From positions 1 through 64,000 of IMG/VR virus record IMGVR_UViG_3300020183_000040: a stretch of DNA of 64,000 nt; one strand, 5' to 3'. Position numbers and translations under genes: made by a program. A model generated the notes under the pieces. It did no database searches. It worked only from the letters and a program-made list of their open reading frames with translations, and was not told where the DNA came from. Below, piece by piece: positions 1-64,000 of the stretch (its first letter is position 1; every line of letters starts with the position of its first letter). This DNA comes from a virus.

Positions 1-147
1 TTCCTTGCGTTCATTGCTATACTTGGTTGGAACGCATTTCTCATTCAACGTGATGACAAACTGTTCAAGGCATACTATCACGAAACTGCCAAAGAGCAGT
101 ATTGTGCATCTCTCAAAGTATGGCACCCTGATTGTAAAATTGAGTGA
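1..147 (+). CDS. 3' part of small hypothetical protein (FLAFIAILGWNAFLIQRDDKLFKAYY...CKIE*), truncated by window start
   Basis: Frame 1 is open from position 1 to TGA at 145-147; hydrophobic N-terminal part; not in the ORF track. Confidence 0.6.
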   Translation, partial: FLAFIAILGWNAFLIQRDDKLFKAYYHETAKEQYCASLKVWHPDCKIE

Positions 148-153
148 TGCCGT

Positions 154-212
154 GTGCCAGTCCACAAACTGTCACAACCCCTCTTGATTTCCGCGCCATT
201 CCGTGCCATACT
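154..212 (+). promoter_or_regulatory. Early promoter unit copy 1: imperfect palindrome GTGCCAGT-N6-ACTGTCAC, -35 TTGATT (184-189), -10 CATACT (207-212)
   Basis: 17-nt spacer between hexamers; a closely similar unit is at 1728-1786. Confidence 0.8.
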
Positions 213-218
213 ATCAGT

Positions 219-626
219 ATGAAAAACAACAACACCACTTCCACTCTGTTCCAAACTGGCAACGACCTCTCTGAGGATCTCATTTCTGTCTTTCGTGCTC
301 TGAAGTCTGACACGTTCGATGTCTATCAGATGACTGAAGATCCTGATTGCACGATTGTTCACTCCTGCAAGCGTGGACCTTCCGAGTTGATTGAGTCTGA
401 CCCGATTCAAGGTAATACCTATCGCGCAGGTGTTGCTTACGATGTGTTCAACGTCTGGGTCACCATTCAGTCTGCTGTGCCTGGCAAGACGCCTGGTCTG
501 AAGAAGTGCATCGCTGAAGATGTTCGCTCCTTCGATGATGCTTGGCAAATTGCGTCTGAGTACATTCAGGACGTGCAATTCGACGAGAACTACATTCTCG
601 AAAACGACTACGATGACAACTTCTAA
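219..626 (+). CDS. Hypothetical early protein, 135 aa, acidic C-terminus; probably leaderless
   Basis: In-frame ATG at 219 of ORF 144..626 lies 7 nt after the -10 box; the upstream part of the ORF overlaps the promoter. Confidence 0.75.
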   Translation: MKNNNTTSTLFQTGNDLSEDLISVFRALKSDTFDVYQMTEDPDCTIVHSCKRGPSELIESDPIQGNTYRAGVAYDVFNVWVTIQSAVPGKTPGLKKCIAEDVRSFDDAWQIASEYIQDVQFDENYILENDYDDNF

Positions 627-627
627 G

Positions 628-744
628 ATGAAAACACTTTCGATTGTTTTTCTCATTTTCTTTCTGCTATTTCCCTCTGTACGGTATAGCACTGGTTCAC
701 TGATTTCATCGTTTGGTTCACTCATTCAATCCACTGCTGACTGA
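628..744 (+). CDS. Small hydrophobic/membrane hypothetical protein (MKTLSIVFLIFFLLFPSVR...)
   Basis: ATG at 628, just after the previous stop; in frame with ORF 520..744. Confidence 0.6.
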   Translation: MKTLSIVFLIFFLLFPSVRYSTGSLISSFGSLIQSTAD

Positions 745-751
745 TTCTCTC

Positions 752-919
752 ATGACACGCGAACAACGTCAAAAAAACTACTATCGCCAACAATCTCACT
801 GGATTCGTGATAGTTTCACTTACATCAAAGATTCTCGCTGTATCGAAGAATCTTTCACTCCTGATGAATACTTAGACTATCTGGATCGCAAACTCTATCG
901 CCAATCAAATCACGCCTAA
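752..919 (+). CDS. Hypothetical protein (MTREQRQKNYY...)
   Basis: In-frame ATG at 752; tight packing with neighbours. Confidence 0.6.
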   Translation: MTREQRQKNYYRQQSHWIRDSFTYIKDSRCIEESFTPDEYLDYLDRKLYRQSNHA

Positions 920-920
920 A

Positions 921-1220
921 ATGTCCCTAGAACGCCCCGCAATCACCTCTCTACCACATACACCACCTGCGGGGTATTTCTATACCATTGGAGACCATTC
1001 ACCGAGGTTCTGGAGAGTTGATCTCGTGCATCCTCCAATATACTCTTACACAGATAAAGTTGTTTTCACTATCTGGGGTTTTCTATCCAAAAAAACATTA
1101 CAAATCCATGCTCCTGTAAATAGTAAAACACCAGGCAAAATCATCCCTTCCGAACTTACAACTCCATGGTCAGCAATGTTCCCCCCAAAAGTGTCACCTC
1201 TGGTCAAATTGTTTTCATAG
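921..1220 (+). CDS. Hypothetical cyanophage-type protein, 99 aa
   Basis: ORF track; tight packing; contains TIWGF...IHAPVNSKTPGK. Confidence 0.7.
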   Translation: MSLERPAITSLPHTPPAGYFYTIGDHSPRFWRVDLVHPPIYSYTDKVVFTIWGFLSKKTLQIHAPVNSKTPGKIIPSELTTPWSAMFPPKVSPLVKLFS

Positions 1221-1369
1221 TTGGTGATCACGTTGTGTGGAGACATATTGATGGTCATGTCTATTTTGTCGATGATGATTACATAACTATTTGTGTCAAA
1301 GGTTCTCAGTGTTGTGTACTTTGCTATCGTGAGAATTGGAAAGAGGTTGTCCATCAGGAACGCAAATAA
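1166..1369 (+). CDS. Hypothetical protein (GHVYFVDDDYITICV...CCVLCY); start uncertain
   Basis: ORF track; fills the gap between neighbours. Confidence 0.5.
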   Translation: MVSNVPPKSVTSGQIVFIVGDHVVWRHIDGHVYFVDDDYITICVKGSQCCVLCYRENWKEVVHQERK

Positions 1370-1370
1370 G

Positions 1371-1529
1371 ATGAACTCTAAAACTACTCTTCAAGAAGAA
1401 TTGTCCTACATTGCTATCACCTTCAGAGAGACAGTTAGTATAGTTTTCCACAGGTTTTTCCACAGGGTAGATGATAGATTGTGGAAAACGCGGTATTATT
1501 TCGAAATGTTGAAAAAAATGTGGTTGTGA
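1371..1529 (+). CDS. Possible small hypothetical protein overlapping the DnaA-box-like motifs
   Basis: ATG at 1371, right after the previous stop; the C-terminal half may be non-coding. Confidence 0.4.
   Translation: MNSKTTLQEELSYIAITFRETVSIVFHRFFHRVDDRLWKTRYYFEMLKKMWL
1444..1488. promoter_or_regulatory. Three TTTTCCACA motifs (1444-1452 +, 1456-1464 +, 1480-1488 -), DnaA-box-like
   Basis: Exact 9-mers seen; TTTTCCACA is the DnaA-box variant typical of cyanobacterial oriC. Confidence 0.6.
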
Positions 1530-1662
1530 GAGAATGATCGAGGAAATGTGCGAGTGAATAGCAACCTTAGCACGTTCGTCATCGATTTGTCAATCCCCCA
1601 CAGATTAGCACTCCGAATACCTCACAAACCCATCAGAAATGCTCATGAATCGCATCATCCAC

Positions 1663-1691
1663 TTGACAAACATTCAGAGGTCCTCTATACT
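1663..1691 (+). promoter_or_regulatory. Sigma70-type promoter TTGACA-N17-TATACT
   Basis: Near-perfect consensus in a non-coding stretch. Confidence 0.8.
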
Positions 1692-1727
1692 AACACTGTA
1701 AGGGTTCAGAAATACCTAACCCTCGAT

Positions 1728-1786
1728 GTGCCAGTCAGACAAGTGTCACAACCCCTCTTGATTTCCCTCTGAATCCCTGCCATACT
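1728..1786 (+). promoter_or_regulatory. Early promoter unit copy 2: GTGCCAGT-N6-AGTGTCAC, TTGATT (1758-1763), N17, CATACT (1781-1786)
   Basis: Repeat of 154-212, including the shared TGTCACAACCCCTCTTGATTTCC. Confidence 0.8.
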
Positions 1787-1814
1787 ACAAGAGTCAACCA
1801 AACAACCCCCTCTC

Positions 1815-2129
1815 ATGCGTAAGATCGAACGACTGATGAATGATGCTATCACTGCTGGCAAAGATTTCAAGTCTGGCAACACTCAAGTTGTGACGATTGA
1901 GGACGTTTCGTTTGTCTATCTGCATGGCAATCACATCGCCTCTGTAGGTAACGACTTCCTGCAACTGTTCTCTGGTGGATGGCAATCTGTGACCACAAAG
2001 TCTCGTTTGAATGCTATTCTTGTCGCCCATGGTTTGCCTGGTGAGAAAATCTTCCAGAAAAACTTCCAGTGGTTTGTTTCACAGCGAGGCGGTCCTATTC
2101 CTTTCTTCTCAGGTATGCGTCTCGCCTGA
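1815..2129 (+). CDS. Conserved-looking cyanophage early hypothetical protein, 104 aa (MRKIE...VYLHGNHIA...GGWQSVTTKSRLNA)
   Basis: ORF track; downstream of a promoter unit. Confidence 0.8.
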   Translation: MRKIERLMNDAITAGKDFKSGNTQVVTIEDVSFVYLHGNHIASVGNDFLQLFSGGWQSVTTKSRLNAILVAHGLPGEKIFQKNFQWFVSQRGGPIPFFSGMRLA

Positions 2130-2132
2130 TAG

Positions 2133-2150
2133 TTTTCCACAATTTCCACA
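2133..2150 (+). promoter_or_regulatory. Tandem DnaA-box-like motifs TTTTCCACA and ATTTCCACA
   Basis: Seen directly in intergenic DNA. Confidence 0.55.
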
Positions 2151-2182
2151 ACTCACTCACACACACATTCACTATCACTACT

Positions 2183-2359
2183 ATGCTGAATCTGAACACC
2201 CCACGTACACTCACCCAGTTGCGTTATGCCAAAGACGGTAATGCTCTGCTACGTGTACTTTCACAGTTCGATGTCACTGAAACTCCCTCACAAAAACTCC
2301 CCTCACCTGGGAAAATCCTTGTGGGTTATGGACAGGACTTGACAGAAGTTGTTTTTTGA
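2183..2359 (+). CDS. Hypothetical protein (MLNLNTPRTLTQLRYAKDG...)
   Basis: In-frame ATG at 2183 of ORF 2069..2359. Confidence 0.55.
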   Translation: MLNLNTPRTLTQLRYAKDGNALLRVLSQFDVTETPSQKLPSPGKILVGYGQDLTEVVF

Positions 2360-2367
2360 AGTATACT
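2339..2367 (+). promoter_or_regulatory. Sigma70-type promoter TTGACA-N17-TATACT
   Basis: Consensus hexamers with 17-nt spacer, followed by AAC as at 1663-1694. Confidence 0.8.
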
Positions 2368-2378
2368 AACTACTACCA

Positions 2379-2522
2379 ATGATTTACACTATGAAAATCG
2401 AAGATGATTACAAACAGTACGAAGATCGTGTCGAGGAAGATGAGTGGATCTCTACCATCTTAGGCGCTCCCGATGATGTACTGGATGACCTGCGAGAGGT
2501 ATACATGGACGAGTATGTGTGA
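2379..2522 (+). CDS. Small, highly acidic protein, 47 aa (MIYTMKIEDDYKQYEDRVEEDEWISTILGAPDDVLDDLREVYMDEYV)
   Basis: Translated by hand (below the track cut-off); has its own promoter immediately upstream. Confidence 0.65.
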   Translation: MIYTMKIEDDYKQYEDRVEEDEWISTILGAPDDVLDDLREVYMDEYV

Positions 2523-2699
2523 CCTCTGAGTATACCTAACTAGCGCCAAAACCCAGTGGTGGCGGGCGTTTTCGGGGTCGGGGGCGGCCGTATATAAAGA
2601 AAAGGGTCCTATCTAATCTATAAAAGTATCCAATCGACAGTGTGGTACTTGCCTATATAAAAAAAATCTCCCAGAAAAAATCGCCCCGTAGAGGTTTTC

Positions 2700-2906
2700 A
2701 TGGTCAGTCCTTTATACACTCAAGAACTAAGAACCCGCATCTTAGAAACTCTCATTCAGTACGAAGGATTGCTTGACACTCGGATGTATGGATGTGCAGA
2801 TTATCTCGCAACTGCTGGATTGGTATCTGACACTTCTCATATGATCCAAGGGTGGAATACTTGGAAGACTGAGCACACATCAGATGGATACCACGTCAAG
2901 CTGTAA
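2700..2906 (+). CDS. Hypothetical protein, 68 aa
   Basis: ORF track; GAGG upstream. Confidence 0.6.
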   Translation: MVSPLYTQELRTRILETLIQYEGLLDTRMYGCADYLATAGLVSDTSHMIQGWNTWKTEHTSDGYHVKL

Positions 2907-2910
2907 AGAT

Positions 2911-3069
2911 ATGAAAAGATTTACCGTTAGCCTTCAAGAAGATGAATATGGAGATCTCATTCTACCAATTCCAGAAGAAGTTATCGATGACCTCGGATGG
3001 GAACTTGGGGATGAACTTCAATACATTGTAGATGGTGATACATTTCTTCTGAAAAAATATGAAGAATAA
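2911..3069 (+). CDS. AbrB/MazE/SpoVT-like small DNA-binding protein
   Basis: GDLILPIPEEVIDDLGWELGDELQY fits the swapped-hairpin pattern; in-frame ATG at 2911. Confidence 0.65.
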   Translation: MKRFTVSLQEDEYGDLILPIPEEVIDDLGWELGDELQYIVDGDTFLLKKYEE

Positions 3070-3102
3070 TTCAAATAACCTCTCCAGCGCGAATTCCAGA
3101 TT

Positions 3103-3390
3103 ATGACTAACCCTGACGACAACCCTAACACGAAACTGAGAGCACTACTGCGATATACTTCTAACAACGAAAATGAGTATGCCCACCGCGTTTCCTCTGA
3201 AGCAATACAAGCAATTATCAAAAGAGTGGTCGAGTTGGAAGAGAAAGTCAATGCGTTATCAAAGTGGTTAGATACGATTCATATTGCCCTTGTCTATAAG
3301 CCAGAGGGTGCAGAGAAGCATCTAAATATGGTAGAGAATTATAATGAAATTTATAGTCGTCTACGGAAATTAGAACATGAGCGGTTGTAA
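3103..3390 (+). CDS. Hypothetical coiled-coil protein, 95 aa
   Basis: ORF track; overlaps the next start. Confidence 0.65.
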   Translation: MTNPDDNPNTKLRALLRYTSNNENEYAHRVSSEAIQAIIKRVVELEEKVNALSKWLDTIHIALVYKPEGAEKHLNMVENYNEIYSRLRKLEHERL

Positions 3391-6300
3391 TACTGATGGG
3401 TCTCCGAAAGAGCAACAAGGATTCGGGCTTCCTACATTCAATAATAGTCATTGTGGCAACTGGATGCCAGATAGTGGTAAAGGAGTCAAGGTCACATCAT
3501 GGCATTATCCAGCACGTAATACCGACTTACATTGGCCTGGCGTAGAACGTGATCGAATCATGTACGGATCGGTCATCATGTCGATTGGTGGTCCCACCAC
3601 TGGGGGGAACCAAGCTTCGCTACCTCTTTCGACGTGTGGTAAAGAAAAAAGACTTGAAGGAAGCCAGTCGTCGGGCTTCGGCCGATCCAGCAGCAACACC
3701 CAAACCACTACAATGTATCGTGTATGGAATACAGTTCCTGCAAAACTTTCTTTTTTCCCGATTGATAGTGATCAGTGGTTTGCATATTTGTATGATACCT
3801 CAACTTATTTTGTTGCTGACAGTGCTTGCACCAAACATCTGACATATCAAATTCGAACAACATCGCAAGGCACTGGTACTGGCACTGGTACTGGTACTGG
3901 TACTGGCGGCGGTGGTGGTCTTGGGGGTGGCGGCCAGCAGCAGGTAGCATTTAGTACAAGGACTGAATGTGTACATTGTGGAGGGTCCGTCACTCCAACA
4001 TCCACCAGCATATCGTATACTACTCCAGACGGTGATCTTACTGGAATTCCTGAGCGTCCATTCCCAACGATCTATACTGCTAGCAGTGCAGTCAAAAGAA
4101 TTGCATTCAAATATAATAATGCAACAACTCAACTTACAAATAGTGTAACATCATTATCATTGCAAGTAGGTTCCACAACAACACCTGCCTGGGCAGAGAA
4201 CGCTGGCGTAAATACCTCTACATCAACCGTCAATAATTGGAGACAAAATGAATATGATGTTGATGTCTTCAAAGAATTTGGATCTCCGTCTTTTGCCAAT
4301 AAAGGTCTGATTATAACAGTAAGATTTACTCCAATTATTTTATCCCAAGTCAATGGAGTTTATACATTTGGTGGAACGACAATATCAATCGTTGGAGTTT
4401 CATCTGGTGGATCTGGATACGCAGTCAATAATAGTTTCAATTTATCTTATACTCATACTCACACCAACAATACTACGAGTGTAATCAATTTTACTGTGGT
4501 TATCACTGCTGTCGGAAGTGTTTCTGTGAGTTCTGGTACTGGAGCAACTAAAATTTCTAAAGGTGAATCTCTAAATGGATGGACAGTTGCTAAAGTTATG
4601 CACACTGACATCAAGAATTTTCCTTGGCATGTTCTAGAACTGTCTGGAAATGGTAGTAATTTTACAAAAGACACCAACTACACCACAAGTGGAGGAAAAA
4701 GTATCAATGTTTGTGCTGGAAAAGGTATTCCAGACCGTGCAATGATCGTAGGAATGTACGAATTCAGGCAAAAAGAGATACAATTTGAAATTCTAAATCT
4801 CAAAAAGGATGTTCCACACGCATTTGACGATATAAAACAACCAGAAGTTACAGTTACAGTGACCAATGGTGTTGTTACTGGTGCTACAATTGTAAGTGGA
4901 GGTAGTGGATTTGATAAATTGCCGTATCCTGCAACGATCGTTATTGGAATTCCACCAACAACCACGGGAAAACAAGCAGAAGTTGAAGGAAAATTCACTA
5001 ATGGAGTGCTTACTTCAGTAAAAATTATCAATGGCGGCAGTGGATATTCGACATCAGCACCGCCAGGGATAAAAGTTCCGTATATGTTCAAGAATAGAAC
5101 GGATACTGTGTTCGAAGGACTCGATCCAAACACGGTATCTGCGTTCAAAGACAAGGTTGCTTCCTATCAAGGTGAACTTGGTAAGTTTACTGGCGTAAAA
5201 AAGACACCAAAACCATCACAAAACACAAGTTTTCCTGATGTTGAGCAATTTGGACCAGAAAATAAGACATATAATAAAATGCCAGATCACTTTTTGCTCA
5301 AATTTTCACGTTCAAAGACTTATACAGACCCAAAAAGTGGACAAACTGTCAAAAAAACATCTGATGAATGGGGAGAAAAGGTATTTGTTACTATTGAAGA
5401 TGCTAAACTGAAGGCAGATGAACTCAAATCTGAGGGTTATGAAGTCTCTATTGAGAAAAAAGTAGGAGTTAGCTTCACAACTTATGCAAAAGAGGCAGAA
5501 AAAGAGTATGAGAAGTATGCAAAAGAGACAACAAGCGCAGGAAAAAACGCTGGTTTGACTGCACCTGCAACAACTGAAGAAGAATATAAGGCAATTCTTG
5601 GTGCTGGATCACAACCAGTCCAAAATATTACTCCTCTAAGCATTGTTGAAGACTTCGACTACGATTCAAAAACAAAAGTTACCTATACTCTTGCCCAAGA
5701 TAAATTTGATAAGGCAGATATTGACAAATTACCCATCCAACCACCAGTAAAAAGTGATCAATACTATACAAACCTTGATAAAACGTTAGGAAAGGTGGCA
5801 GCACCCACTCAAACTGGCAAAGTAAATAAGGATTTATACTCAGATGAACCAACTAGCGTCATAAAAAAAGAAACATCTACCGAAATTAGTACTATTACTA
5901 AGGCTGGCACACAACTGAGTTACACTAAACAGTTTGGTGCTGACTATGATACTAAAGATAAAAATTTCGATCAAATGATCGATGACATTACATACAAACC
6001 AGATCAGCATAAGTACACAAATCCTTATGATCTTCCAAAAGTTATTACGGTCAAAGCTTCATTTTCAAAATTACCTTGTGCAAGTCGTTATAGAAAATAT
6101 TTTATTATTCAATATGTTCCTGATAAAAGAGAAAATAGTTACATAACAGTAAATTTAGCTGTAACTTCAGCAAATACAAACAACTGTAACAATGTTTGCT
6201 CACCATGCCCAATTATTCCTAACCCTCCTAGTTTTGGGGCAGGAACTAATCAGACTCAGGGCACAGGTGCTAACGCCACCACCTTCAATACCGCTGAAAC

Positions 6301-6451
6301 ACTAATCGGATGTTCAATCCAAGCTCTGGGTCCAACTACTTTTAGTGTCTCTGGCACAATAGATATATATAATAACCTCACAGCAACTACACAGGTCTTT
6401 GCTTCTGCAGTTTCTGCTTGGGGTAACCCATTTGAGTCGGAGTGTCCATAA
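3377..6451 (+). CDS. Virion structural protein, 1024 aa, with GGSGY-type beta repeats and Cys-containing termini
   Basis: VTNGVVTGATIVSGGSGF and VKIINGGSGYSTSAPP repeats are shared with the baseplate proteins; lies before PAAR and gp25. Confidence 0.7.
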   Translation: MSGCNTDGSPKEQQGFGLPTFNNSHCGNWMPDSGKGVKVTSWHYPARNTDLHWPGVERDRIMYGSVIMSIGGPTTGGNQASLPLSTCGKEKRLEGSQSSGFGRSSSNTQTTTMYRVWNTVPAKLSFFPIDSDQWFAYLYDTSTYFVADSACTKHLTYQIRTTSQGTGTGTGTGTGTGGGGGLGGGGQQQVAFSTRTECVHCGGSVTPTSTSISYTTPDGDLTGIPERPFPTIYTASSAVKRIAFKYNNATTQLTNSVTSLSLQVGSTTTPAWAENAGVNTSTSTVNNWRQNEYDVDVFKEFGSPSFANKGLIITVRFTPIILSQVNGVYTFGGTTISIVGVSSGGSGYAVNNSFNLSYTHTHTNNTTSVINFTVVITAVGSVSVSSGTGATKISKGESLNGWTVAKVMHTDIKNFPWHVLELSGNGSNFTKDTNYTTSGGKSINVCAGKGIPDRAMIVGMYEFRQKEIQFEILNLKKDVPHAFDDIKQPEVTVTVTNGVVTGATIVSGGSGFDKLPYPATIVIGIPPTTTGKQAEVEGKFTNGVLTSVKIINGGSGYSTSAPPGIKVPYMFKNRTDTVFEGLDPNTVSAFKDKVASYQGELGKFTGVKKTPKPSQNTSFPDVEQFGPENKTYNKMPDHFLLKFSRSKTYTDPKSGQTVKKTSDEWGEKVFVTIEDAKLKADELKSEGYEVSIEKKVGVSFTTYAKEAEKEYEKYAKETTSAGKNAGLTAPATTEEEYKAILGAGSQPVQNITPLSIVEDFDYDSKTKVTYTLAQDKFDKADIDKLPIQPPVKSDQYYTNLDKTLGKVAAPTQTGKVNKDLYSDEPTSVIKKETSTEISTITKAGTQLSYTKQFGADYDTKDKNFDQMIDDITYKPDQHKYTNPYDLPKVITVKASFSKLPCASRYRKYFIIQYVPDKRENSYITVNLAVTSANTNNCNNVCSPCPIIPNPPSFGAGTNQTQGTGANATTFNTAETLIGCSIQALGPTTFSVSGTIDIYNNLTATTQVFASAVSAWGNPFESECP
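3869..3918 (+). repeat. GGYACT hexamer run encoding a (GT)n and poly-Gly linker
   Basis: ggcactggtactggcactggtactggtactggtactggcggcggtggtgg. Confidence 0.8.
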
Positions 6452-6970
6452 ATGCCAGGTCCAGGTTGCGCCCTTTTCAAAGGAGTCTGTAGCGGTCACG
6501 GGAAGTGTGTTCCAGGTATCATTCATGCTACTATCCAATGTATCCCGAGTGGAGGCAGCTGTGCCACCGCACCAAAGAAAACTGTAGCAGCAATGGATGC
6601 TTATACTCAATGGCCACCTGCTCCCCTAGTACCGAAGACAGTTGGATTTTGTGTAACAGTAAAAGTTGAGAAATTGATTCCAATTGTAAATGGTGATATA
6701 CTACAAGAGCACAAGTCACCTTGTATGAACAAGATCATAACATCTCCTTGCCCAAAAGCACAGAATAGTCCAGTTCCAATCATGTGTAATGCGACAGTAT
6801 TTACATGTGCAGATGATGCAGGCGGAATTGGACACCAAAGAGTTGCAGTGGCAACTAGTAAAACAGTATTTTTTGAAAAAAAGAATGCATGTAGAATAGG
6901 AGATGGATTTGCTATCCCATGCAAGAGCAAAATTCCAACAGGAGCAAAAACAGTACTTATAGGTCCCTAA
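6452..6970 (+). CDS. PAAR-like baseplate spike-tip protein (T4 gp5.4-like), Cys-rich
   Basis: SGHG...WPPAP...GD...H...SKTVFF...ACRIGD...C...GAKTVLIG pattern; lies before gp25. Confidence 0.75.
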   Translation: MPGPGCALFKGVCSGHGKCVPGIIHATIQCIPSGGSCATAPKKTVAAMDAYTQWPPAPLVPKTVGFCVTVKVEKLIPIVNGDILQEHKSPCMNKIITSPCPKAQNSPVPIMCNATVFTCADDAGGIGHQRVAVATSKTVFFEKKNACRIGDGFAIPCKSKIPTGAKTVLIGP

Positions 6971-6973
6971 ATT

Positions 6974-7123
6974 ATGGCAGTAAAATCTAAAATTGGTCTA
7001 GTCAAAACAAATTACACTCCTGGTAAACCAAAGTGTACTCGTCAAGGAAGATCCCAAAATACAAATCTTGCGGCAACAGCTCGCAATGGACGTAAAAAAC
7101 GTTATAGGGGTCAAGGAAAATGA
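6974..7123 (+). CDS. Small basic protein, 49 aa (…RNGRKKRYRGQGK)
   Basis: Translated by hand; ATG 6974, TGA 7121-7123. Confidence 0.7.
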   Translation: MAVKSKIGLVKTNYTPGKPKCTRQGRSQNTNLAATARNGRKKRYRGQGK

Positions 7124-7132
7124 AAAAAAACC

Positions 7133-7140
7133 AATAAATA
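7133..7140 (+). promoter_or_regulatory. T4-type late promoter variant AATAAATA
   Basis: Intergenic, upstream of the gp25/gp6 unit. Confidence 0.55.
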
Positions 7141-7197
7141 TATTAGGGATAGCAACCCCTCTAAAAGTTCTGGAAACAGACACTTCTAGAAACTCTC

Positions 7198-7395
7198 ATG
7201 GCTATCTCTCCTATCCCTGATAATGTACCAACTATGATGGAACGTGATTTTGGCACAGTAGTGCTAATCACTGATCCAGTTTCTGACAAATATCTGGCAA
7301 GAATTCAAAAAAATGATCCACCAAAGGATCGTTATTCTCGTCATTGTGGTGGAAAAGGTGGTTTTGACGATTTTGTTGAACGCTGGCACGAATAA
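7198..7395 (+). CDS. Hypothetical protein, 65 aa
   Basis: ORF track; TAATG coupling to gp25. Confidence 0.65.
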   Translation: MAISPIPDNVPTMMERDFGTVVLITDPVSDKYLARIQKNDPPKDRYSRHCGGKGGFDDFVERWHE

Positions 7396-7844
7396 TGGCA
7401 AGTTTCTATTACGGAGAACCTACAAAAATTATAACTGGGAAGGAGGTAGTCCCTCTCAGCAAGAGTTTTCGTGATATTGACATTGCCTTTACACCTCATC
7501 CATCTACTGAAGATGTTTCAAGTAAATATAATGATCAAGCAATCAAGCAATCGCTAAAAAACTTGATCATGACCACTCCAGGGGAAAGATTTTATGAACC
7601 TGATTATGGTTGCCAAGTTAGTCGATTGTTATTTGAACCACTAGATGCATTTTTGTCAGATCAAGTGAAAAATGAAATACTAAATACAGTTGAACGTTTT
7701 GATCCGAGAGTATTACTTATTGACGTAACCGTAACTCCAGAATATGACCAATATTTCTTGTTCGTTGAAATAGTCTATAGAATTGTAGGACAAGCACTAA
7801 CCCAAGAGTTGAATTTCATTCTAGAAACACCAGTCCAAGCATAA
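7395..7844 (+). CDS. gp25: Baseplate wedge subunit gp25
   Basis: AIKQSLKNLIMTTPGERFYEPDYGC...LLFEP...ERFDPRV. Confidence 0.93.
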   Translation: MASFYYGEPTKIITGKEVVPLSKSFRDIDIAFTPHPSTEDVSSKYNDQAIKQSLKNLIMTTPGERFYEPDYGCQVSRLLFEPLDAFLSDQVKNEILNTVERFDPRVLLIDVTVTPEYDQYFLFVEIVYRIVGQALTQELNFILETPVQA

Positions 7845-9982: not shown

Positions 9983-9996
9983 ATTTTCTTGATAAA

Positions 9997-43593: not shown

Positions 43594-43600
43594 TTCCTAC

Positions 43601-43627: not shown

Positions 43628-43631
43628 GTAG

Positions 43632-43639: not shown

Positions 43640-43674
43640 ATCCAGAGGTAATTATCGAGAAGTTGTGACCTGAA

Positions 43675-50169: not shown

Positions 50170-50173
50170 AAAA

Positions 50174-53398: not shown

Positions 53399-53400
53399 TC

Positions 53401-54974: not shown

Positions 54975-55083
54975 TGAGCAATATTTATCAGTAAGTAAAC
55001 ACATACTTATCAAATTAGAACTTATTGTAACAATTTTTTTTGGTAAATAGTAGTATAATTTTGTAGCAACTTGATACTTCCTT

Positions 55084-55746: not shown

Positions 55747-55913
55747 TTGGGGTCTCACTCTTACTAATATTTCTTGCTACAATGACCTATCATGGGATCA
55801 TGATTCACAAAGGTTTGCGTGGATATAGAAATCATGCAAGGGAAGAACACGAATCTGAGCAGATGCGTCGAAGAATCGAAGACCTAATGAATGAAAAAAT
55901 ACATTCGAAATAA
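55722..55913 (+). CDS. Small membrane protein, 63 aa
   Basis: ORF track; N-terminal transmembrane segment. Confidence 0.6.
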   Translation: MAQHYPEIIGVSLLLIFLATMTYHGIMIHKGLRGYRNHAREEHESEQMRRRIEDLMNEKIHSK

Positions 55914-55918
55914 ATATC

Positions 55919-56047
55919 ATGCCAAGTAATTTTCCGTGGGGTGTAATTGCTATCCTTAGTGTGGGACTGAGTTTCACTCTATATGTGATCGTATATATAC
56001 TTCGTATTGCATATTTGGAGATGCAAGATGGCAAAAAGCCCAAATAA
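55919..56047 (+). CDS. Small membrane protein, 42 aa (MPSNFPWGVIAILSVG...)
   Basis: Translated by hand; AATAAATA just upstream. Confidence 0.6.
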   Translation: MPSNFPWGVIAILSVGLSFTLYVIVYILRIAYLEMQDGKKPK

Positions 56048-56144
56048 AGGTAAGAAAGGTTCTCCTGGAGGACAAAAAAATTCCAAGCAAAATCAGGGAA
56101 ATGCCACAGCTAGAAAAGCAAAAAACGGTGGTAAAAAGAAATGA
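56028..56144 (+). CDS. Small Lys/Gly-rich basic protein, 38 aa (MAKSPNKGKKG...KNGGKKK)
   Basis: Translated by hand; GGAG upstream; ATGA coupling to the next ORF. Confidence 0.6.
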   Translation: MAKSPNKGKKGSPGGQKNSKQNQGNATARKAKNGGKKK

Positions 56145-56353
56145 AGAACCTAGCAATCATTCTGTCAGCAACAAGTCTGGCAGTTAGTGGAGCATTGTGT
56201 TATGGTGCTTACGTAACCTATCAGAAAGCACAGAAGATTCTGGACAATCCAGAGGCGTTTGTCGGTGCTGTTGTGGAGAAACAAGTCAATAAAGCATTTG
56301 AGAAACTACCTATTCCCAAACTAAATACTAAAGAGTTTAGGTTGCCTTTCTAA
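56141..56353 (+). CDS. Small membrane-anchored protein, 70 aa
   Basis: ORF track. Confidence 0.7.
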   Translation: MKNLAIILSATSLAVSGALCYGAYVTYQKAQKILDNPEAFVGAVVEKQVNKAFEKLPIPKLNTKEFRLPF

Positions 56354-56508
56354 TGAATTATATTGCATTCTTGGTTATTGGATTGGTAGAAATCGGTCCT
56401 AATGTATGTAAAGTTGATTACATGCGTTATGTTGATGTGCAATCCTTTACGATGCCTTGCGATCATATTCAAAAAATTACAAAAGCTCCAGTGGATAGAT
56501 CGATATGA
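56353..56508 (+). CDS. Hypothetical protein, 51 aa (MNYIAFLVIGLVEIGPNVC...)
   Basis: Translated by hand; TAATG and ATGA coupling on either side. Confidence 0.6.
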   Translation: MNYIAFLVIGLVEIGPNVCKVDYMRYVDVQSFTMPCDHIQKITKAPVDRSI

Positions 56509-56909
56509 AAGACCCCTATATCTACAGAATCCGTTCAATTGCAAAGGTGGTAGATGGCGACACTATTGACGCTAACATTGATCTCGGTTTTGATATCTCT
56601 CTCAATAAGCGAATTCGCCTTGCGGGCATTGACACGCCTGAGAGCAGGACAAAAGACGAATACGAAAAGAAACTCGGACTCGAATCGAAAGAGTGGTTGA
56701 AGAAGCATCTGGAGGGATCTAAAGATATTCTTATCAAGACTGAACTTCCAGATAGCACAGAGAAGTATGGTCGTATCATCGGACACTTGTATATCAACGG
56801 TGAAGAAATATCAGTCAATAATAAAATGATCAACGAAGGATACGCCTGGGAATATGACGGTGGTACAAAACAAAAAGATTTTTGGTCTCTTCTAAGTAAA
56901 AGAAAGTGA
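56505..56909 (+). CDS. Thermonuclease (staphylococcal nuclease-like) family protein
   Basis: KVVDGDTID; RIRLAGIDTPE; KYGRIIG; MINEGYA. Confidence 0.9.
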   Translation: MKDPYIYRIRSIAKVVDGDTIDANIDLGFDISLNKRIRLAGIDTPESRTKDEYEKKLGLESKEWLKKHLEGSKDILIKTELPDSTEKYGRIIGHLYINGEEISVNNKMINEGYAWEYDGGTKQKDFWSLLSKRK

Positions 56910-60959: not shown

Positions 60960-61616
60960 ATGGCATCTAGTTCTATCGACGCTTTCAAAGCTAGTGTAAA
61001 GAGCGACTTCGCAAGACCCAACTTGTTTGTAGTCGATCTTGCTTTCCCTGGTGCATTGAAGCTAGGAGGAGACGGTGGAGCAACCGCTTCTTCTCAACTT
61101 ACCGCACTTGGTCAATTCACCGTTCGTGCAGCAAACCTCCCATCATCTCAGATGGGAGTTATCGAAGTGCCCTACAGAGGTCGTGTTCTAAAAATTGCGG
61201 GTGACCGTACATTTGAACCATGGACTGTTACTATTATGAACGATACCAACTTCTCACTGCGTAGTGCAATGGAAGCGTGGTTCTCAGCAGTCCAAGCATA
61301 TAATGAAAACTATACCTCACTTGGTACTCTCGGTGATGCATCTGACCAGACTGGTTATTTTGCAGACATGTCTGTAACACAACTATCGCGTGATGCAACA
61401 GAAGGTGGATCTTCGTCTGCCTCAGGTACTTCCGATAAGACGCCTAAGGCGCTTAGGAAGTATAACTTCGTCAACGTATTCCCAAGCAACATTTCTGCTA
61501 TCGATCTTGATTTCGGTAGCAATGACGCAATCGAAGAATTCACTGTTGAACTACAAGTTCAATACTGGACTCCTGCCGTAACTGGCAAAGATTCTGGCAA
61601 CAAAACTGGTTCATAA
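60960..61616 (+). CDS. gp19: Tail tube protein gp19
   Basis: ARPNLFVV; IEVPYRGRVLKIAGDRTFEPWTVT; IEEFTVELQVQYW. Confidence 0.96.
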   Translation: MASSSIDAFKASVKSDFARPNLFVVDLAFPGALKLGGDGGATASSQLTALGQFTVRAANLPSSQMGVIEVPYRGRVLKIAGDRTFEPWTVTIMNDTNFSLRSAMEAWFSAVQAYNENYTSLGTLGDASDQTGYFADMSVTQLSRDATEGGSSSASGTSDKTPKALRKYNFVNVFPSNISAIDLDFGSNDAIEEFTVELQVQYWTPAVTGKDSGNKTGS

Positions 61617-61630
61617 GGTTTTTGATGTCG

Positions 61631-61638
61631 TATAAATA
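61631..61638 (+). promoter_or_regulatory. T4 late promoter TATAAATA
   Basis: Exact consensus upstream of gp20. Confidence 0.85.
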
Positions 61639-61661
61639 AAATTGGGATTTGAATTGATATA

Positions 61662-63314
61662 ATGTCTCAACTCTTTGGATTTTCTATCGAAAGAGCAAAG
61701 AAGGTCCCCAAAGGACCTTCTTTTGTTCAGAAAGATAACCTCGATGGCACAATGCCAGTCGTAGGTGGTGGTTATTATGGTTATGCAGTTGACTTTGATG
61801 CAACTGTCACTAATGATTGGGAACTAATTTCTCGTTATAGAGAAATGATTCTTCAACCAGAATGTGATAGTGCAGTTGATGATATTGTAAATGAAACAAT
61901 TTGTGGTAATTTTGATGATGTTCCTATTGAAATTGAACTGAGTAATCTCAAAGTATCAGATAAAATCAAGAAATTGATTAGAGAAGAATTTGATGAGATT
62001 ATTCGTTTACTAGATTTTGAAAATAGATCATACGAAATTTTTCGTAGATGGTATGTTGATGGACGACTTTTCTTCCATAAGGTTATTGATCCAAAAAATC
62101 CTTCTGGTGGTATTATCGAACTTAGATATGTCGATCCAAGAAAAATTAGAAAAGTAAAAGAAGTAGAAAACAAACCAGTCGAAAGAGCTGCTGGTATAGA
62201 CGAAGCTCTTTCTCAAAAATCGGTTGAGTATTACATCTACCATCCGAAAGGTTTGAAAGCAATGAGTAATATCGGGCAAGGTGCTGGGCAACAGCAAGGA
62301 TTGAGAATTGCTTCCGATTCTATTTGCTACGTGCATTCTGGTATCATGGATTTGAATAAAAACATGGTGCTTTCACATTTACATAAAGCAATCAAGTCTG
62401 TAAATCAACTCCGCATGATTGAAGACTCTCTTGTAATTTACCGTTTGTCTCGTGCTCCAGAAAGAAGAATTTTCTACATTGATGTGGGTAATCTACCTAA
62501 GCAAAAAGCAGAACAATATCTGCGTGAAGTTATGGGTAGATATCGTAATAAGCTGGTTTATGATGCACAAACTGGCGAAATCAGAGATGATAAAAAGTTC
62601 ATGTCGATGCTTGAAGACTTTTGGCTTCCTCGTCGTGAGGGTGGTAGAGGAACGGAAATTACTACTCTCCCTGGCGGGCAAAATCTGGGTGAATTGGAAG
62701 ATGTCAAATACTTCCAAAAGAAACTCTATAAAGCATTGAATGTTCCTGAGTCAAGGATGGAAACAGAACAAACATTCAACATTGGTCGTGCTGCTGAAAT
62801 CACTCGTGATGAAGTAAAATTTCAAAAATTTGTTGCAAGACTTCGTAAAAGATTCTCGGAACTTTTTACTGATATCCTGAAGACTCAACTAGTTTTGAAA
62901 GGTATTATCTCCATTGAAGAATGGGATCAAATAAAAGAGCATATTCAATATGATTATGTTGCTGACAATTACTTTACAGAACTCAAGGAAATTGAAATTA
63001 CTAATGAAAGAATGAATATGGTAAACACCATGGATCCTTTTGTTGGTAAGTATTTTTCAATTGAGTATATTCGTCGTCAAGTTCTAAAACAAACTGATAG
63101 ACAGATACTGGAAATTGATGAACAAATTGAATCTGAAATGCAAGATGGACTTATCCAAGATCCAAATGCAATGGATCCAACAATGATGGGTGGGGCACCA
63201 CCTGCTGATCCAGGTGCAGCAGTAGATCCATCAAACCCTGCTGGCGGAGATGAACAATCTTTATTCTCCAAAGCAGATATTGATGCAGAAGATAAGAAAA
63301 TTTCTAAATTCTAA
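61662..63314 (+). CDS. gp20: Portal vertex protein gp20
   Basis: RRWYVDGR; IYRLSRAPERRIFYIDVGNLPK; EDFWLPRREGGRGTEITTLPG. Confidence 0.97.
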   Translation: MSQLFGFSIERAKKVPKGPSFVQKDNLDGTMPVVGGGYYGYAVDFDATVTNDWELISRYREMILQPECDSAVDDIVNETICGNFDDVPIEIELSNLKVSDKIKKLIREEFDEIIRLLDFENRSYEIFRRWYVDGRLFFHKVIDPKNPSGGIIELRYVDPRKIRKVKEVENKPVERAAGIDEALSQKSVEYYIYHPKGLKAMSNIGQGAGQQQGLRIASDSICYVHSGIMDLNKNMVLSHLHKAIKSVNQLRMIEDSLVIYRLSRAPERRIFYIDVGNLPKQKAEQYLREVMGRYRNKLVYDAQTGEIRDDKKFMSMLEDFWLPRREGGRGTEITTLPGGQNLGELEDVKYFQKKLYKALNVPESRMETEQTFNIGRAAEITRDEVKFQKFVARLRKRFSELFTDILKTQLVLKGIISIEEWDQIKEHIQYDYVADNYFTELKEIEITNERMNMVNTMDPFVGKYFSIEYIRRQVLKQTDRQILEIDEQIESEMQDGLIQDPNAMDPTMMGGAPPADPGAAVDPSNPAGGDEQSLFSKADIDAEDKKISKF

Positions 63315-63339
63315 ATAGTATATACGGAGTGACGTAATT

Positions 63340-63651
63340 ATGTCTAAAAGTGCTAGTGAAATAGTTGATCAAATTTTTTCTGGAGATAAAGTTTCTGCAT
63401 TAGATTCAATTGATAGTGCGTTACAATCTCGGGCATATGACTTGATTCAGCAAACAAAACATGAATTTGCTAAGCAATGGGGTTTTGAACTTGATCAAAC
63501 TGGTCAAGCAGTTGCTGATGAACTTGAAGATACTTTGCCTGATGGTACGGATGCTCCTCAAGATTATGAATTTGATGGTCGAATGCCCCATGAAGCCCCA
63601 GATGATGAAGTAACACCAGAAGAGGAAAACGAAAATGAAACTGATCTCTGA
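63340..63651 (+). CDS. Acidic hypothetical protein between the portal and protease genes (prohead-core position)
   Basis: ORF track; GGAG RBS; CTAAATA upstream; synteny. Confidence 0.7.
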   Translation: MSKSASEIVDQIFSGDKVSALDSIDSALQSRAYDLIQQTKHEFAKQWGFELDQTGQAVADELEDTLPDGTDAPQDYEFDGRMPHEAPDDEVTPEEENENETDL

Positions 63652-64000
63652 GCAAATTGTAGACGTAAAATTTATTGCCGAAGAAGTAGAAGGTAAAAAA
63701 AATTACTTCATCGAAGGTATTTTTCTACAAGGAGAAATCAAGAATCGTAATGGAAGACTGTATCCAATGAGTGTTTTGGATAGAGAAGTTGCTAAATATG
63801 ATGAAAACTTTATCCAGAGTGGTCGCGCCCTTGGCGAACTTGGTCACCCTGATGGTCCATCTTTGAACCTAGATAGAGTTTCACACAAAATTATGCACCT
63901 CAAAAAAGAGGGAACCAACTATGTTGGTAGAGCAAAAATTTTGGCAACTCCCATGGGACAAATTGCAAAGAATCTTCTAGACGAAGGTATCAAACTTGGA
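63635..64000 (+). CDS. gp21: Prohead protease gp21, 5' part (truncated by window end)
   Basis: Translated by hand: MKLISEQ...YFIEGIFLQGEIKNRNGRLYP...RALGELGHPDGP..NLDRVSH...ATPMGQIAK. Confidence 0.92.
   Translation, partial: MKLISEQIVDVKFIAEEVEGKKNYFIEGIFLQGEIKNRNGRLYPMSVLDREVAKYDENFIQSGRALGELGHPDGPSLNLDRVSHKIMHLKKEGTNYVGRAKILATPMGQIAKNLLDEGIKLG

What the first reader, a model, noticed from the sequence alone, without database searches (positions are those of the whole stretch)
1..64000. Apparent total avoidance of TTAA in an AT-rich genome
Seen: reading by eye, I found no TTAA, although AATT, TATA and ATAT are abundant and several hundred TTAA would be expected from base composition. Synonymous choices visibly route around it (CTA AAx, ATC AAx, TTC AAx, GTC/GTA AAx), and TAA stops are not preceded by T. 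Known: TTAA is the site of MseI-type endonucleases, and restriction-site avoidance is a common phage adaptation. Inference: there is very strong selection from a TTAA-specific host defence that the phage cannot block by methylation, or from a phage-encoded TTAA nuclease that destroys host DNA while sparing its own. GATC is plentiful, so the avoidance is site-specific.
Basis: partly seen in the sequence, partly recalled or inferred. Interest (0 to 1): 0.72.

Follow-up and report, generated by a model that had tools for sequence, protein, structure and literature searches.

The report
TTAA-free freshwater cyanophage genome
This lake cyanobacterial virus has respelled its codons so that the four-letter word TTAA never occurs in its DNA, most likely because viruses of its lineage carry a TTAA-type DNA-cutting enzyme without the usual protective methylase and stay safe only by offering it nothing to cut.

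Summary
TTAA occurs 0 times in the window (about 450 expected) and 0 times in the whole 85,186-base contig (416 expected under a codon-preserving shuffle). It is removed entirely by synonymous codon choice.

The contig is a T4-like cyanomyovirus found in lake-water metagenomes. On a portal tree, the six TTAA-free phages (this one, cultured S-ShM2 and four metagenome contigs) form one clade among 82 rows. CCGG loss is family-wide and independent of TTAA loss.

Relatives carry a small Type II restriction-endonuclease family (PADLOC REase_II, conserved D…ExK). Where its adjacent adenine methylase is intact, TTAA persists (28 of 28 loci). Where the methylase is absent or degenerate, TTAA is 0 in 9 of 13 loci. 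Methylase loss happened at least four times.

Solitary copies sit in S-ShM2 and in the closest relative spanning the site. My contig, 48% complete, ends about 4.7 kb short of that site, so the nuclease is inferred for this phage, not seen.

Two other phages of S-ShM2's host keep TTAA, which argues against host restriction. I found no publication. This scan has already reported the same phenomenon on other cyanophage DNA.

The parts
1..64000 (.). Stretch with no TTAA and no CCGG on either strand. It is part of an 85,186-base contig with the same property. Dense plus-strand structural and replication genes of a T4-like cyanomyovirus.
   Evidence: counts; codon-preserving expectation and codon context; identity as a cyanomyovirus, syntenic with S-ShM2 53.4-140.9 kb.
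713..56909 (+). Block collinear with contig G010 (IMGVR_UViG_3300009124_000009). G010 carries the solitary restriction-type nuclease about 4.7 kb upstream of the point matching window position 713.
   Evidence: gene-by-gene tblastn, same order, 36-89% amino-acid identity; the nuclease lies just after the helicase in both G010 and S-ShM2.
61662..63314 (+). Portal protein gene (gp20 homologue), used as the phylogenetic marker that places this phage in the TTAA-free clade.
1..3900 (.). 5' end of the contig. The assembly fragments here and stops short of the expected nuclease site. Contains a 61-nt direct repeat (153-213 and 1727-1787) and a conserved Kyano_Gp96 gene (1815-2129) shared with many other phages.
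   Evidence: repeat; PF23790; short contigs and depth of 370-1,480 at 1335-2668, against 43-107 for the main ~18.5-kb contig further on; the best overlapping metagenome contig, L357, reaches only 189 nt upstream.

Best explanation
The genome is kept free of TTAA by continuing purifying selection at synonymous sites. The most likely selective agent is a TTAA-specific Type II restriction endonuclease that this phage lineage encodes itself, without a cognate methylase.

Shown: total absence of TTAA achieved by codon choice. The trait defines one clade of cyanomyoviruses. Relatives encode a small PD-(D/E)XK-type Type II endonuclease family that is normally paired with an N6-adenine methylase. Across that family, TTAA is fully purged where the methylase is lost or degenerate.

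Inferred: that the enzyme cuts TTAA. That this particular phage carries it just upstream of where its contig ends. That its use is to cut host DNA, rival-phage DNA, or both. Host chromosomes carry TTAA every 0.4-1.2 kb and most cyanomyoviruses carry 3-8 per kb, while the phage's own DNA is immune because it has no sites. Once the methylase is lost, any new TTAA would be self-cut, which would explain an exact zero rather than mere depletion.
For: (1) Avoidance is absolute and synonymous. At 23 TTAA sites in conserved genes of relatives, this phage has the same amino acids at 16.

(2) On a portal tree of 82 rows, the 6 TTAA-free rows (own, L001, L002, L076, L077, S-ShM2) form one clade with support 100. 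The other 76 rows have 2-8 TTAA per kb. S-ShM2 has 0 TTAA in 179,563 bases against 586 expected.

(3) S-ShM2 gene SShM2_059 belongs to a family with 95 unnamed homologues. The family matches PADLOC REase_II model PDLC03515: E = 1e-27 for the S-ShM2-type copy and 1.3e-13 for the L111 copy. D, E and K of a D...ExK motif are kept in 49 of 49 members. In most members the gene abuts or overlaps a beta-class methylase whose best solved relatives are the adenine methylases M.MboIIA, M.RsrI and CcrM. A picocyanobacterial chromosome holds a distant homologue as an overlapping M-R pair.

(4) Association over 49 family-bearing loci. With an intact adjacent methylase, TTAA is present in 28 of 28 loci (0.05-5.3 per kb). 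With no methylase or a degenerate one, TTAA is 0 in 9 of 13. The no-methylase state needs at least 4 independent changes on the nuclease tree.

(5) Specificity. TTAA is the only tetramer with O/E <= 0.01 in all 11 such sequences (this contig, whose nuclease is unseen, was counted among the 11). Its median O/E is 0.95 in 38 background loci. G012 has the nuclease, no methylase, 0 TTAA in 82 kb and a normal 113 CCGG.

(6) Controls. Complete TTAA-rich genomes G005 and G006 lack the family (0 of 2). Of 80 loci anchored on the neighbouring Gp96 gene, 79 lack the nuclease and all 80 contain TTAA.

(7) Link to this phage. G010 plus G003 form one phage of about 148 kb that is slightly closer to mine than S-ShM2 is (major capsid protein 90.8% against 88.2%). 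It is collinear with my contig, carries a solitary nuclease, shows no PF01555 methylase in G010, and has 3 TTAA in all.

(8) S-TIM4 and S-H35, isolated on the same host strain as S-ShM2, have 352 and 212 TTAA per 50 kb.
Against: The nuclease is not in this window or contig (the contig is 48% complete). Attempts to extend it upstream failed.

On the portal tree my phage pairs with L002 and is sister to the subclade that holds both nuclease-bearing relatives. The inference therefore rests on a shared trait, not strict bracketing.

The nucleases of S-ShM2 and G010 are only about 37% identical, so the gene has been replaced or has diverged fast within the clade.

There are exceptions. G011 has an S-ShM2-like nuclease, no detected methylase, and 39 TTAA in 61 kb. 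L133 has no adjacent methylase and 2.2 TTAA per kb, though it has distal methylase-like matches. L115 has 0.25 per kb with a methylase 8 kb away.

Phages with an intact methylase are also partly depleted and often have a TTAA-free island around the cassette. TTAA selection is therefore not simply switched on by methylase loss.

The association could run the other way: a genome already TTAA-free for another reason can afford to lose the methylase.
Confidence: 0.55

Rival explanations
1. Classical restriction-site avoidance. The natural hosts (freshwater or marine picocyanobacteria) commonly carry a TTAA-specific restriction system, and the phage escapes by having no sites. The phage-borne nuclease would be incidental, or affordable only because the genome was already TTAA-free.
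For: This is the textbook cause of palindrome avoidance in phages (survey: Rusinov et al. 2018, PMC6286503; I saw only the title and a term search). A distant homologue of the same endonuclease family exists as a methylase-nuclease pair in a picocyanobacterial chromosome. Methylase-bearing phages are also partly depleted in TTAA. The same genome avoids CCGG and other words for which I found no phage nuclease.
Against: Only 2 of 401 sampled genomes of the WH7803 family match the nuclease profile, and distantly (E about 3e-14). S-TIM4 and S-H35, isolated on the same strain as S-ShM2, keep TTAA at O/E about 0.9. 76 of 80 related cyanomyovirus loci keep 2-8 TTAA per kb. The purge is exact and follows the phage's own gene content across at least 4 independent lineages, including one (G012) that does not share the CCGG avoidance. 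Only one endonuclease family was searched in hosts, so other TTAA enzymes could exist.
Confidence: 0.2
2. Defence against rival phages. Many co-occurring cyanomyoviruses carry the nuclease-methylase cassette, so in mixed infections a TTAA-bearing genome would be cut. This phage avoids TTAA to survive rivals' nucleases, whether or not it has one of its own.
For: The cassette is widespread in IMG/VR cyanomyovirus contigs: 45 loci in one scan and 95 protein clusters. Host genomes rarely have it.
Against: Most cyanomyoviruses keep TTAA, so this pressure is evidently not general. It does not explain why an exact zero coincides with possession of a methylase-less nuclease.
Confidence: 0.1
3. Technical artefact or non-selective cause: an assembly or base-calling error at a modified motif, a library made by restriction digestion, or mutational bias.
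For: None found. It is considered because an exact zero is unusual.
Against: The missing sites are replaced in frame by synonymous codons, not at random. The same absence is seen in a cultured, separately sequenced phage and in contigs from four other metagenomes. Logan contigs from 4 runs agree with the window. One-step neighbours of TTAA such as TCAA and TTGA are abundant, so mutation constantly offers new sites; 2.7% of all possible substitutions would create one.
Confidence: 0.02

Closest known systems
Restriction-site (short palindrome) avoidance in virulent phages. Survey: Rusinov et al. 2018, BMC Genomics, PMC6286503. Classic cases such as GATC loss in Staphylococcus phage K are recalled from my own knowledge.
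   Same: A 4-bp palindrome of the kind cut by Type IIP enzymes is strongly under-represented, and it is removed through synonymous codon choice.
   Different: The avoidance is exact: 0 in 85 kb here and 0 in 180 kb in S-ShM2. It follows a nuclease gene carried by the phages themselves rather than any restriction system known in the host. The main text of that survey has no occurrence of cyanophage, Synechococcus or TTAA.
Orthodox Type IIP restriction-modification systems for TTAA (MseI / Tru9I class; names recalled, not checked against REBASE here).
   Same: A small nuclease that matches a Type II restriction-enzyme profile (PADLOC PDLC03515) and is paired, in most family members, with a beta-class N6-adenine methylase. 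TTAA is the word that disappears.
   Different: In this clade the nuclease stands alone, and protection would come from absence of sites, not methylation. Identity of the family with MseI itself could not be tested. Cleavage specificity is inferred from genome statistics only.
Virus-encoded restriction-modification systems of chloroviruses (for example the CviAII and CviJI systems of PBCV-1; recalled from my own knowledge).
   Same: A lytic virus of a phototroph carries a Type II nuclease that could degrade host DNA early in infection. Relatives of this phage carry the full nuclease-methylase pair.
   Different: Chloroviruses protect their DNA by methylation. In this clade no partner methylase was found: PF01555 is absent from the complete S-ShM2 genome and from contigs G010, G012 and G014. 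The genome is recoded instead.
Phage T4 host-DNA breakdown by endonucleases II and IV with self-protection by hydroxymethylcytosine (recalled from my own knowledge).
   Same: This would be the same logic in a T4-like phage: a nuclease that attacks any DNA lacking the phage's own mark.
   Different: The mark here is the absence of a sequence word, not a modified base. No homology to the T4 enzymes was tested.

Membership tests
Restriction-site avoidance in a phage genome | The site count is far below expectation under a null model that keeps proteins and codon usage. | tested here: met
   0 observed against 416.4 (sd 13.4) in 200 synonymous-codon shuffles. 0 against 450 in dinucleotide shuffles.
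Restriction-site avoidance in a phage genome | Sites are removed by synonymous changes while protein sequence is kept. | tested here: met
   T-ending Phe, Ile, Val and Leu codons are never used before AA. TTA is never used before A. No T stands before a TAA stop. 16 of 23 orthologous TTAA positions keep the same amino acids.
Restriction-site avoidance in a phage genome | A cognate restriction activity exists in the host. | tested here: inconclusive
   The nuclease-family profile hit 2 of 401 sampled genomes of the WH7803 family, distantly. Phages S-TIM4 and S-H35 from the same host strain keep TTAA. Other enzyme families and the true lake host were not tested.
Type II restriction endonuclease (PD-(D/E)XK type; PADLOC REase_II PDLC03515), as carried by relatives | Sequence match to a curated Type II restriction-enzyme profile. 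| tested here: met
   L110 copy E = 1e-27 (95 bits). L111 copy E = 1.3e-13. No Pfam family and no match to a solved structure by sequence. Nearest named atlas clusters are RE_Bsp6I at 0.91 and Endonuc-PvuII at 0.90, which are leads only.
Type II restriction endonuclease (PD-(D/E)XK type; PADLOC REase_II PDLC03515), as carried by relatives | Conserved catalytic D...(D/E)xK motif. | tested here: met
   D70, E79 and K81 (profile columns) are present in 49 of 49 members, including all solitary copies. Their role in catalysis is assumed from the motif.
Type II restriction endonuclease (PD-(D/E)XK type; PADLOC REase_II PDLC03515), as carried by relatives | Adjacent cognate DNA methylase. | tested here: not met
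   Met in 28 of 49 family-bearing loci. Not met in this clade: no PF01555 methylase in complete S-ShM2, nor in contigs G010 and G014. This is the point of difference from an orthodox system.
Type II restriction endonuclease (PD-(D/E)XK type; PADLOC REase_II PDLC03515), as carried by relatives | The gene is present in this window or genome. | tested here: not met
   The profile search of the 85,186-base contig found nothing. The contig is 48% complete and ends about 4.7 kb downstream of the site occupied in G010. Absence from the phage is therefore not shown.
Type II restriction endonuclease (PD-(D/E)XK type; PADLOC REase_II PDLC03515), as carried by relatives | Sequence-specific cleavage at TTAA. 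| not testable with these tools
   Indirect evidence only. TTAA is the sole tetramer at O/E <= 0.01 in all 11 sequences counted as methylase-less (this contig, whose nuclease is unseen, among them).
Virus-encoded restriction-modification system used against host DNA (chlorovirus type) | The virus's own DNA is protected by methylation of the target site. | tested here: not met
   No partner methylase in S-ShM2 or G010. This contig has only a D12 (Dam-type) methylase at contig positions 82309-83208.
Virus-encoded restriction-modification system used against host DNA (chlorovirus type) | The nuclease degrades host DNA during infection. | not testable with these tools
   Host chromosomes do offer targets: 49-145 TTAA per 60 kb in four picocyanobacterial genomes.

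The most novel reading that the evidence does not exclude
A clade of T4-like cyanophages, marine and freshwater, uses a methylase-less Type II restriction enzyme as an offensive weapon against host DNA, rival-phage DNA, or both. It protects itself by having recoded its entire genome of about 180 kb to contain no target site. The methylase has been lost at least four separate times in the enzyme family. Each loss locks the lineage into permanent, exact avoidance of one tetranucleotide, so genome-wide codon choice is dictated by a single accessory gene.
Probability: 0.5. Interest if true: 0.85.

Novelty: new variant of a known kind. Interest (0 to 1): 0.7.

Why it matters
If the reading is right, self-immunity to one's own restriction enzyme can come from absence of the site rather than from methylation. 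One small accessory gene would then shape synonymous codon choice across a genome of about 180 kb.

It would also show that cyanophages carry offensive nucleases. Their marine and freshwater picocyanobacterial hosts are thought to have few restriction systems. This bears on how host DNA is recycled during infection and on competition between phages in mixed infections.

In practice, exact absence of a tetramer could flag phages that carry solitary nucleases and predict the specificity of uncharacterised restriction enzymes. The hypothesis is directly testable with the cultured phage S-ShM2.

Tried and rejected
SShM2_145, the annotated 'endonuclease' specific to S-ShM2, as the cause: rejected. 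All 21 of 21 IMG/VR loci with homologues contain TTAA, 9-171 each.

The 215-aa minus-strand ORF at window 78-725 as a hidden nuclease: rejected. It has no Pfam, PHROG, NCBIfam or PDB match and no IMG/VR relative. Its composition looks like antisense translation, and a plus-strand gene (219-626) occupies the place.

The P-RSM4 methylase region as a model: PRSM4_061, 062, 063, 065 and 066 have no homologue in S-ShM2 or in my contig. P-RSM4 30-60 kb has 183 TTAA.

Cellular homologues by pattern scan of genome contigs: none found.

TTAA depletion in the bacterium that carries the homologous M-R pair: none (O/E 1.32). This is expected under methylation, so it is uninformative.

RE_HpaII as the cause of CCGG avoidance: 0 of 401 sampled host-family genomes. 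CCGG is left unexplained.

Extending my contig upstream: the 30-mer scan of metagenome contigs gave 5 contigs. Only L357 (0 TTAA) resembles my phage, and it adds 189 nt. No nuclease was seen. The 22-mer scan of viral contigs gave nothing.

Loci closest by the Gp96 gene (L160-L169, 83-89% identity) proved similar only in that gene. They are not close relatives.

Population test: of 40 listed variants in 4 runs, one would create TTAA alone but is linked to two neighbouring changes that prevent it. About 1 is expected by chance, so the test has no power.

Literature searches found no report of TTAA avoidance or a solitary restriction enzyme in cyanophages. I saw search listings only. For PMC6286503 I saw the title and a term search with no hits.

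As a result, no genomic context for the 95 protein clusters and no fold were obtained.

Full report
OBSERVATION. TTAA does not occur in the 64,000-base window on either strand. Dinucleotide-preserving shuffles expect 450 (sd 19), base composition expects 582, and a maximal-order Markov model expects 249. The window is the first 64 kb of a single 85,186-base contig, an IMG/VR virus record that CheckV rates 48% complete. The whole contig also has no TTAA.

I called 69 ORFs greedily and shuffled synonymous codons 200 times while keeping every protein and the overall codon usage. The expectation is 416.4 (sd 13.4), so z = -31. At least one called ORF, 78-725 on the minus strand, is spurious. It is 648 of about 82,000 coding bases and does not change the result.

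Before codons beginning with AA, Phe is TTC 117 times and TTT 0 times. Ile ATT is 0 of 194, Val GTT 0 of 207, and Leu CTT and TTA 0 of 230. Elsewhere these T-ending codons are the majority. TTA is never followed by an A-initial codon (0 of 635 Leu codons). None of the 30 TAA stops is preceded by T, while 10 of 31 TGA stops are.

AATT (629), ATAT (535), TATA (326) and GATC (321, O/E 0.92) are normal. GGCC, AGCC and GGCT stand near 0.3 of expectation. GGTACC and GTGCAC are absent from the contig, with 8.6 and 9.4 expected.

WHAT THE DNA IS. Megablast finds only 73-77% identity, over short pieces, to T4-like cyanomyoviruses. By portal protein the closest cultured phages are S-ShM2, S-SSM2 and S-RIM14 at 85%. 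These belong to genus Ahtivirus, family Kyanoviridae, and S-ShM2's recorded host is Synechococcus WH8102. The contig is syntenic with S-ShM2 positions 53.4-140.9 kb at 30-89% protein identity, mostly 50-88%.

Part of the window (30000-36000) is held at 0.98-1.00 of sampled words by 20 runs labelled lake water metagenome. They may include the source sample and may be one campaign. In each of four such runs, a contig of about 18.5 kb matches positions 3.9-20 kb with 5-8 differences. So this is a freshwater relative of the marine Ahtivirus group.

DISTRIBUTION OF THE TRAIT. I examined 80 IMG/VR loci around portal homologues. CCGG is absent from 77, so its avoidance is family-wide. TTAA is absent only from the four loci closest to mine (L001, L002, L076, L077, from four different metagenomes). 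The other 76 loci have 2-8 TTAA per kb.

The complete S-ShM2 genome (179,563 bases) has 0 TTAA against 586 expected and 1 CCGG. On a portal tree of 82 rows (FastTree), the six TTAA-free rows form one clade with support 100. My phage pairs with L002 and is sister to (L076, (L001, (S-ShM2, L077))).

Synonymous sites between these phages are heavily diverged, so the zero is being actively maintained. 2.7% of all possible substitutions in the first 20 kb would create a TTAA. An artefact is excluded by the in-frame, synonymous pattern and by the independent sequences.

SEARCH FOR THE AGENT. Earlier notes of this scan, made on other genomes, claimed that TTAA-free cyanophages carry a small nuclease with a dead or missing methylase. 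I treated this as a lead and tested it from scratch.

Two candidates failed: SShM2_145 (21 of 21 homologue-bearing loci contain TTAA) and the spurious ORF at 78-725. The P-RSM4 methylase region also gave no probe that matched S-ShM2 or my contig.

The successful candidate is SShM2_059. It is 165 aa, has no Pfam family, and lies directly after helicase SShM2_058. All three IMG/VR loci with homologues were TTAA-free or strongly depleted. One of them is 36% identical and has 1 TTAA in 19.6 kb at 36% GC.

In that locus (L111) the gene overlaps by 4 nt a 255-aa methylase with a DPPY motif, which is followed by a second methylase. The family has 95 unnamed clusters in the large protein collection. 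It matches the PADLOC Type II restriction-enzyme model PDLC03515: E = 1e-27 for the S-ShM2-type copy from L110 and 1.3e-13 for the L111 copy. It keeps D, E and K of a D...ExK motif in 49 of 49 members.

The partner methylase is most like the solved N6-adenine methylases M.MboIIA (4e-29), M.RsrI and CcrM. The protein atlas gives RE_Bsp6I (0.91) and Endonuc-PvuII (0.90) as the nearest named clusters, which is a lead only. A profile search of solved structures by sequence found nothing.

ASSOCIATION. I classified 49 loci that carry a family member by the state of the adjacent methylase.
- Intact methylase (28 loci): TTAA is always present, 0.05-5.3 per kb.
- Degenerate methylase (4 loci; about 203 aa, 38-39% identity, with the middle of the PF01555 profile missing): TTAA is 0 in all four.
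- No adjacent methylase (9 loci): TTAA is 0 in five (L127, L142, L150, L157, S-ShM2). The others have 0.10 per kb (L123), 0.25 (L115, methylase 8 kb away), 0.56 (L110) and 2.16 (L133, distal methylase-like matches).
- Eight further loci end too close to the gene to be classified.

On a maximum-likelihood tree of the nucleases, the no-methylase label needs 7 changes, of which at least 4 are forced by well-supported branches. So the pattern is replicated, not inherited once.

Whole contigs confirm it. G010 has 2 TTAA in 71 kb, both within 240 bases of one end. G014 has 0 in 44 kb. G012 has 0 in 82 kb.

G012 has a normal 113 CCGG and 21 each of GGTACC and GTGCAC. Across 11 sequences counted as methylase-less (this contig, whose nuclease is unseen, among them), TTAA is the only tetramer with O/E <= 0.01. 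Its median O/E is 0.95 in 38 background loci, and CCGG is normal in six of the eleven. The TTAA purge is therefore tied specifically to this gene family and is independent of the CCGG purge.

Controls: two complete TTAA-rich genomes lack the family. Of 80 loci anchored on the neighbouring Gp96 gene, 79 lack it, none is TTAA-free, and the one with the cassette has an intact methylase and 2.1 TTAA per kb.

Methylase-bearing phages are themselves partly depleted (0.8-3.0 per kb genome-wide). Three of four have a 10-15 kb TTAA-free island round the cassette. The effect is graded and becomes absolute on methylase loss.

LINK TO THIS PHAGE. The nuclease profile finds nothing in my contig, but the contig does not reach the site. 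G010 is collinear with window 713-56909. G003, from the same metagenome, begins where G010 ends, inside the terminase gene. Together they are one phage of about 148 kb, slightly closer to mine than S-ShM2 is (major capsid protein 90.8% against 88.2%; portal 87.1% against 85.2%).

G010's nuclease lies right after the same helicase as in S-ShM2, about 4.7 kb upstream of the point that matches window position 713. The two nucleases are only about 37% identical while the helicases are about 80% identical. So the gene has been swapped or has diverged fast at a fixed site.

Logan contigs fragment over the first 4 kb of my contig. Depth there rises to 370-1,480, against 43-107 for the main contig further on, because the Gp96 gene is shared with other phages. 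This explains why the assembly stops there. Two exact-word scans failed to find an upstream extension. Presence of the nuclease in this phage is therefore an inference from a shared, clade-defining trait.

HOST SIDE. The nuclease profile hit 2 of 401 sampled genomes of the family of Synechococcus WH7803 (E about 3e-14). In one of them it forms an overlapping methylase-nuclease pair, so the family does occur as an ordinary chromosomal restriction-modification system, but rarely. That bacterium is not depleted in TTAA (O/E 1.32), as expected if it is methylated.

Four picocyanobacterial genomes carry 49-145 TTAA per 60 kb, so host DNA would be a good substrate. S-TIM4 and S-H35, both isolated on WH8102 like S-ShM2, have 352 and 212 TTAA in 50 kb (O/E about 0.9). 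That host therefore does not impose TTAA avoidance.

RE_HpaII was not found in 401 sampled host-family genomes. The family-wide CCGG avoidance remains unexplained.

MECHANISM PROPOSED. The shown and inferred steps are separated in the Best explanation section. The lineage carries a TTAA-specific Type II endonuclease. Ancestrally it was paired with an N6-adenine methylase. After loss of the methylase, the only safe genome is one with no TTAA, and any new site is removed by self-cleavage. Hence the exact zero, reached through synonymous codons.

The enzyme would cut host DNA and the DNA of co-infecting phages, most of which carry thousands of sites. The order of events (purge first or methylase loss first) is not resolved. 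The partial depletion and TTAA-free islands in methylase-bearing phages suggest that depletion begins while the methylase is still present.

Exceptions (G011, L133, L115) show either that the nuclease can be inactive or that protection can come from a methylase elsewhere in the genome.

COMPARISON AND NOVELTY. This is restriction-site avoidance (known) combined with a virus-borne restriction enzyme (known in chloroviruses, recalled). The new element is self-protection by site absence instead of methylation.

Five literature searches found no report for cyanophages. The general survey PMC6286503 has no occurrence of cyanophage, Synechococcus, Prochlorococcus or TTAA in its main text.

This scan has already described the same phenomenon on other cyanophage genomes. 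What this window adds is a freshwater member and the collinear link to G010. I also re-derived independently the association, the motif specificity, the same-host controls and the PADLOC classification.

I rate it a new variant of a known kind, with interest 0.7. Confidence is 0.55 that the phage's own nuclease is the agent here.

Noticed in passing
window 1-64000 and related loci L001-L080: CCGG is absent from the window and contig, and from 77 of 80 related cyanomyovirus loci. It is also absent from 50-kb stretches of S-TIM4 and S-H35. This family-wide avoidance is independent of TTAA. No RE_HpaII was found in 401 sampled host-family genomes, so the cause is unknown.
   Followed up: partly
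window 1-64000 (whole contig 1-85186): GGTACC and GTGCAC are absent (8.6 and 9.4 expected). GGCC, AGCC and GGCT stand at about 0.3 of expectation. GGTACC and GTGCAC are also 0 in S-ShM2, G010, G003, G011 and G014, but 21 each in G012.
   Followed up: partly
window 53652-54974 (+): A 440-aa ORF with an S-adenosylmethionine lyase domain (PF23780, E = 3.8e-7, 30.6 bits against a cut-off of 28) and a C-terminal DUF6321. It is a candidate SAM-degrading anti-restriction protein of the T3 type. The N-terminal part has no counterpart in S-ShM2.
   Followed up: partly
contig 82309-83208 (+), outside the window: A D12-class (Dam-type) DNA adenine methylase, orthologue of S-ShM2 'dam' (63% identity). GATC is abundant in the genome, which fits protection by methylation at that site.
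   Followed up: partly
The core has no exact match elsewhere in IMG/VR.
   Followed up: partly
window 9973-28518 (+): A single 6,181-aa ORF, homologue of the S-ShM2 virion structural protein SShM2_093 (61% identity over 6,180 aa).
   Followed up: no
window 56505-56909 (+): A staphylococcal-nuclease-like (PF00565) gene just upstream of the large terminase, conserved in S-ShM2 (SShM2_113). It is a non-specific nuclease type and is present in TTAA-rich relatives as well.
   Followed up: no
G416, G417, G419 (contigs behind L124, L116, L111): Phages with the nuclease and an intact methylase have a 10-15 kb island with no TTAA around the cassette and partial depletion elsewhere (0.8-2.5 per kb). G418 shows no island.
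   Followed up: partly
G011 (contig behind L110), 61,307 bases: It carries a nuclease 79% identical to S-ShM2's in a structurally distant phage, with no detected methylase and 39 TTAA (0.64 per kb), one of them inside the nuclease gene. Possible readings: recent transfer with the purge under way, an inactive enzyme, or protection encoded elsewhere.
   Followed up: no
loci L005, L011, L064 (GATC 4-6), L047 (AGCT 0), L090, L091, L094, L102 (CATG 0): Other cyanomyovirus lineages lack other 4-bp palindromes (GATC, AGCT, CATG), each with a lineage-specific pattern. This suggests the same kind of process with other enzymes.
   Followed up: no
G010 positions 70778 and 70923: The only two TTAA in this 71-kb contig lie within 240 bases of its end, in the region homologous to the plastocyanin gene petE of S-ShM2. 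This could be a recent acquisition or a chimeric contig end.
   Followed up: no
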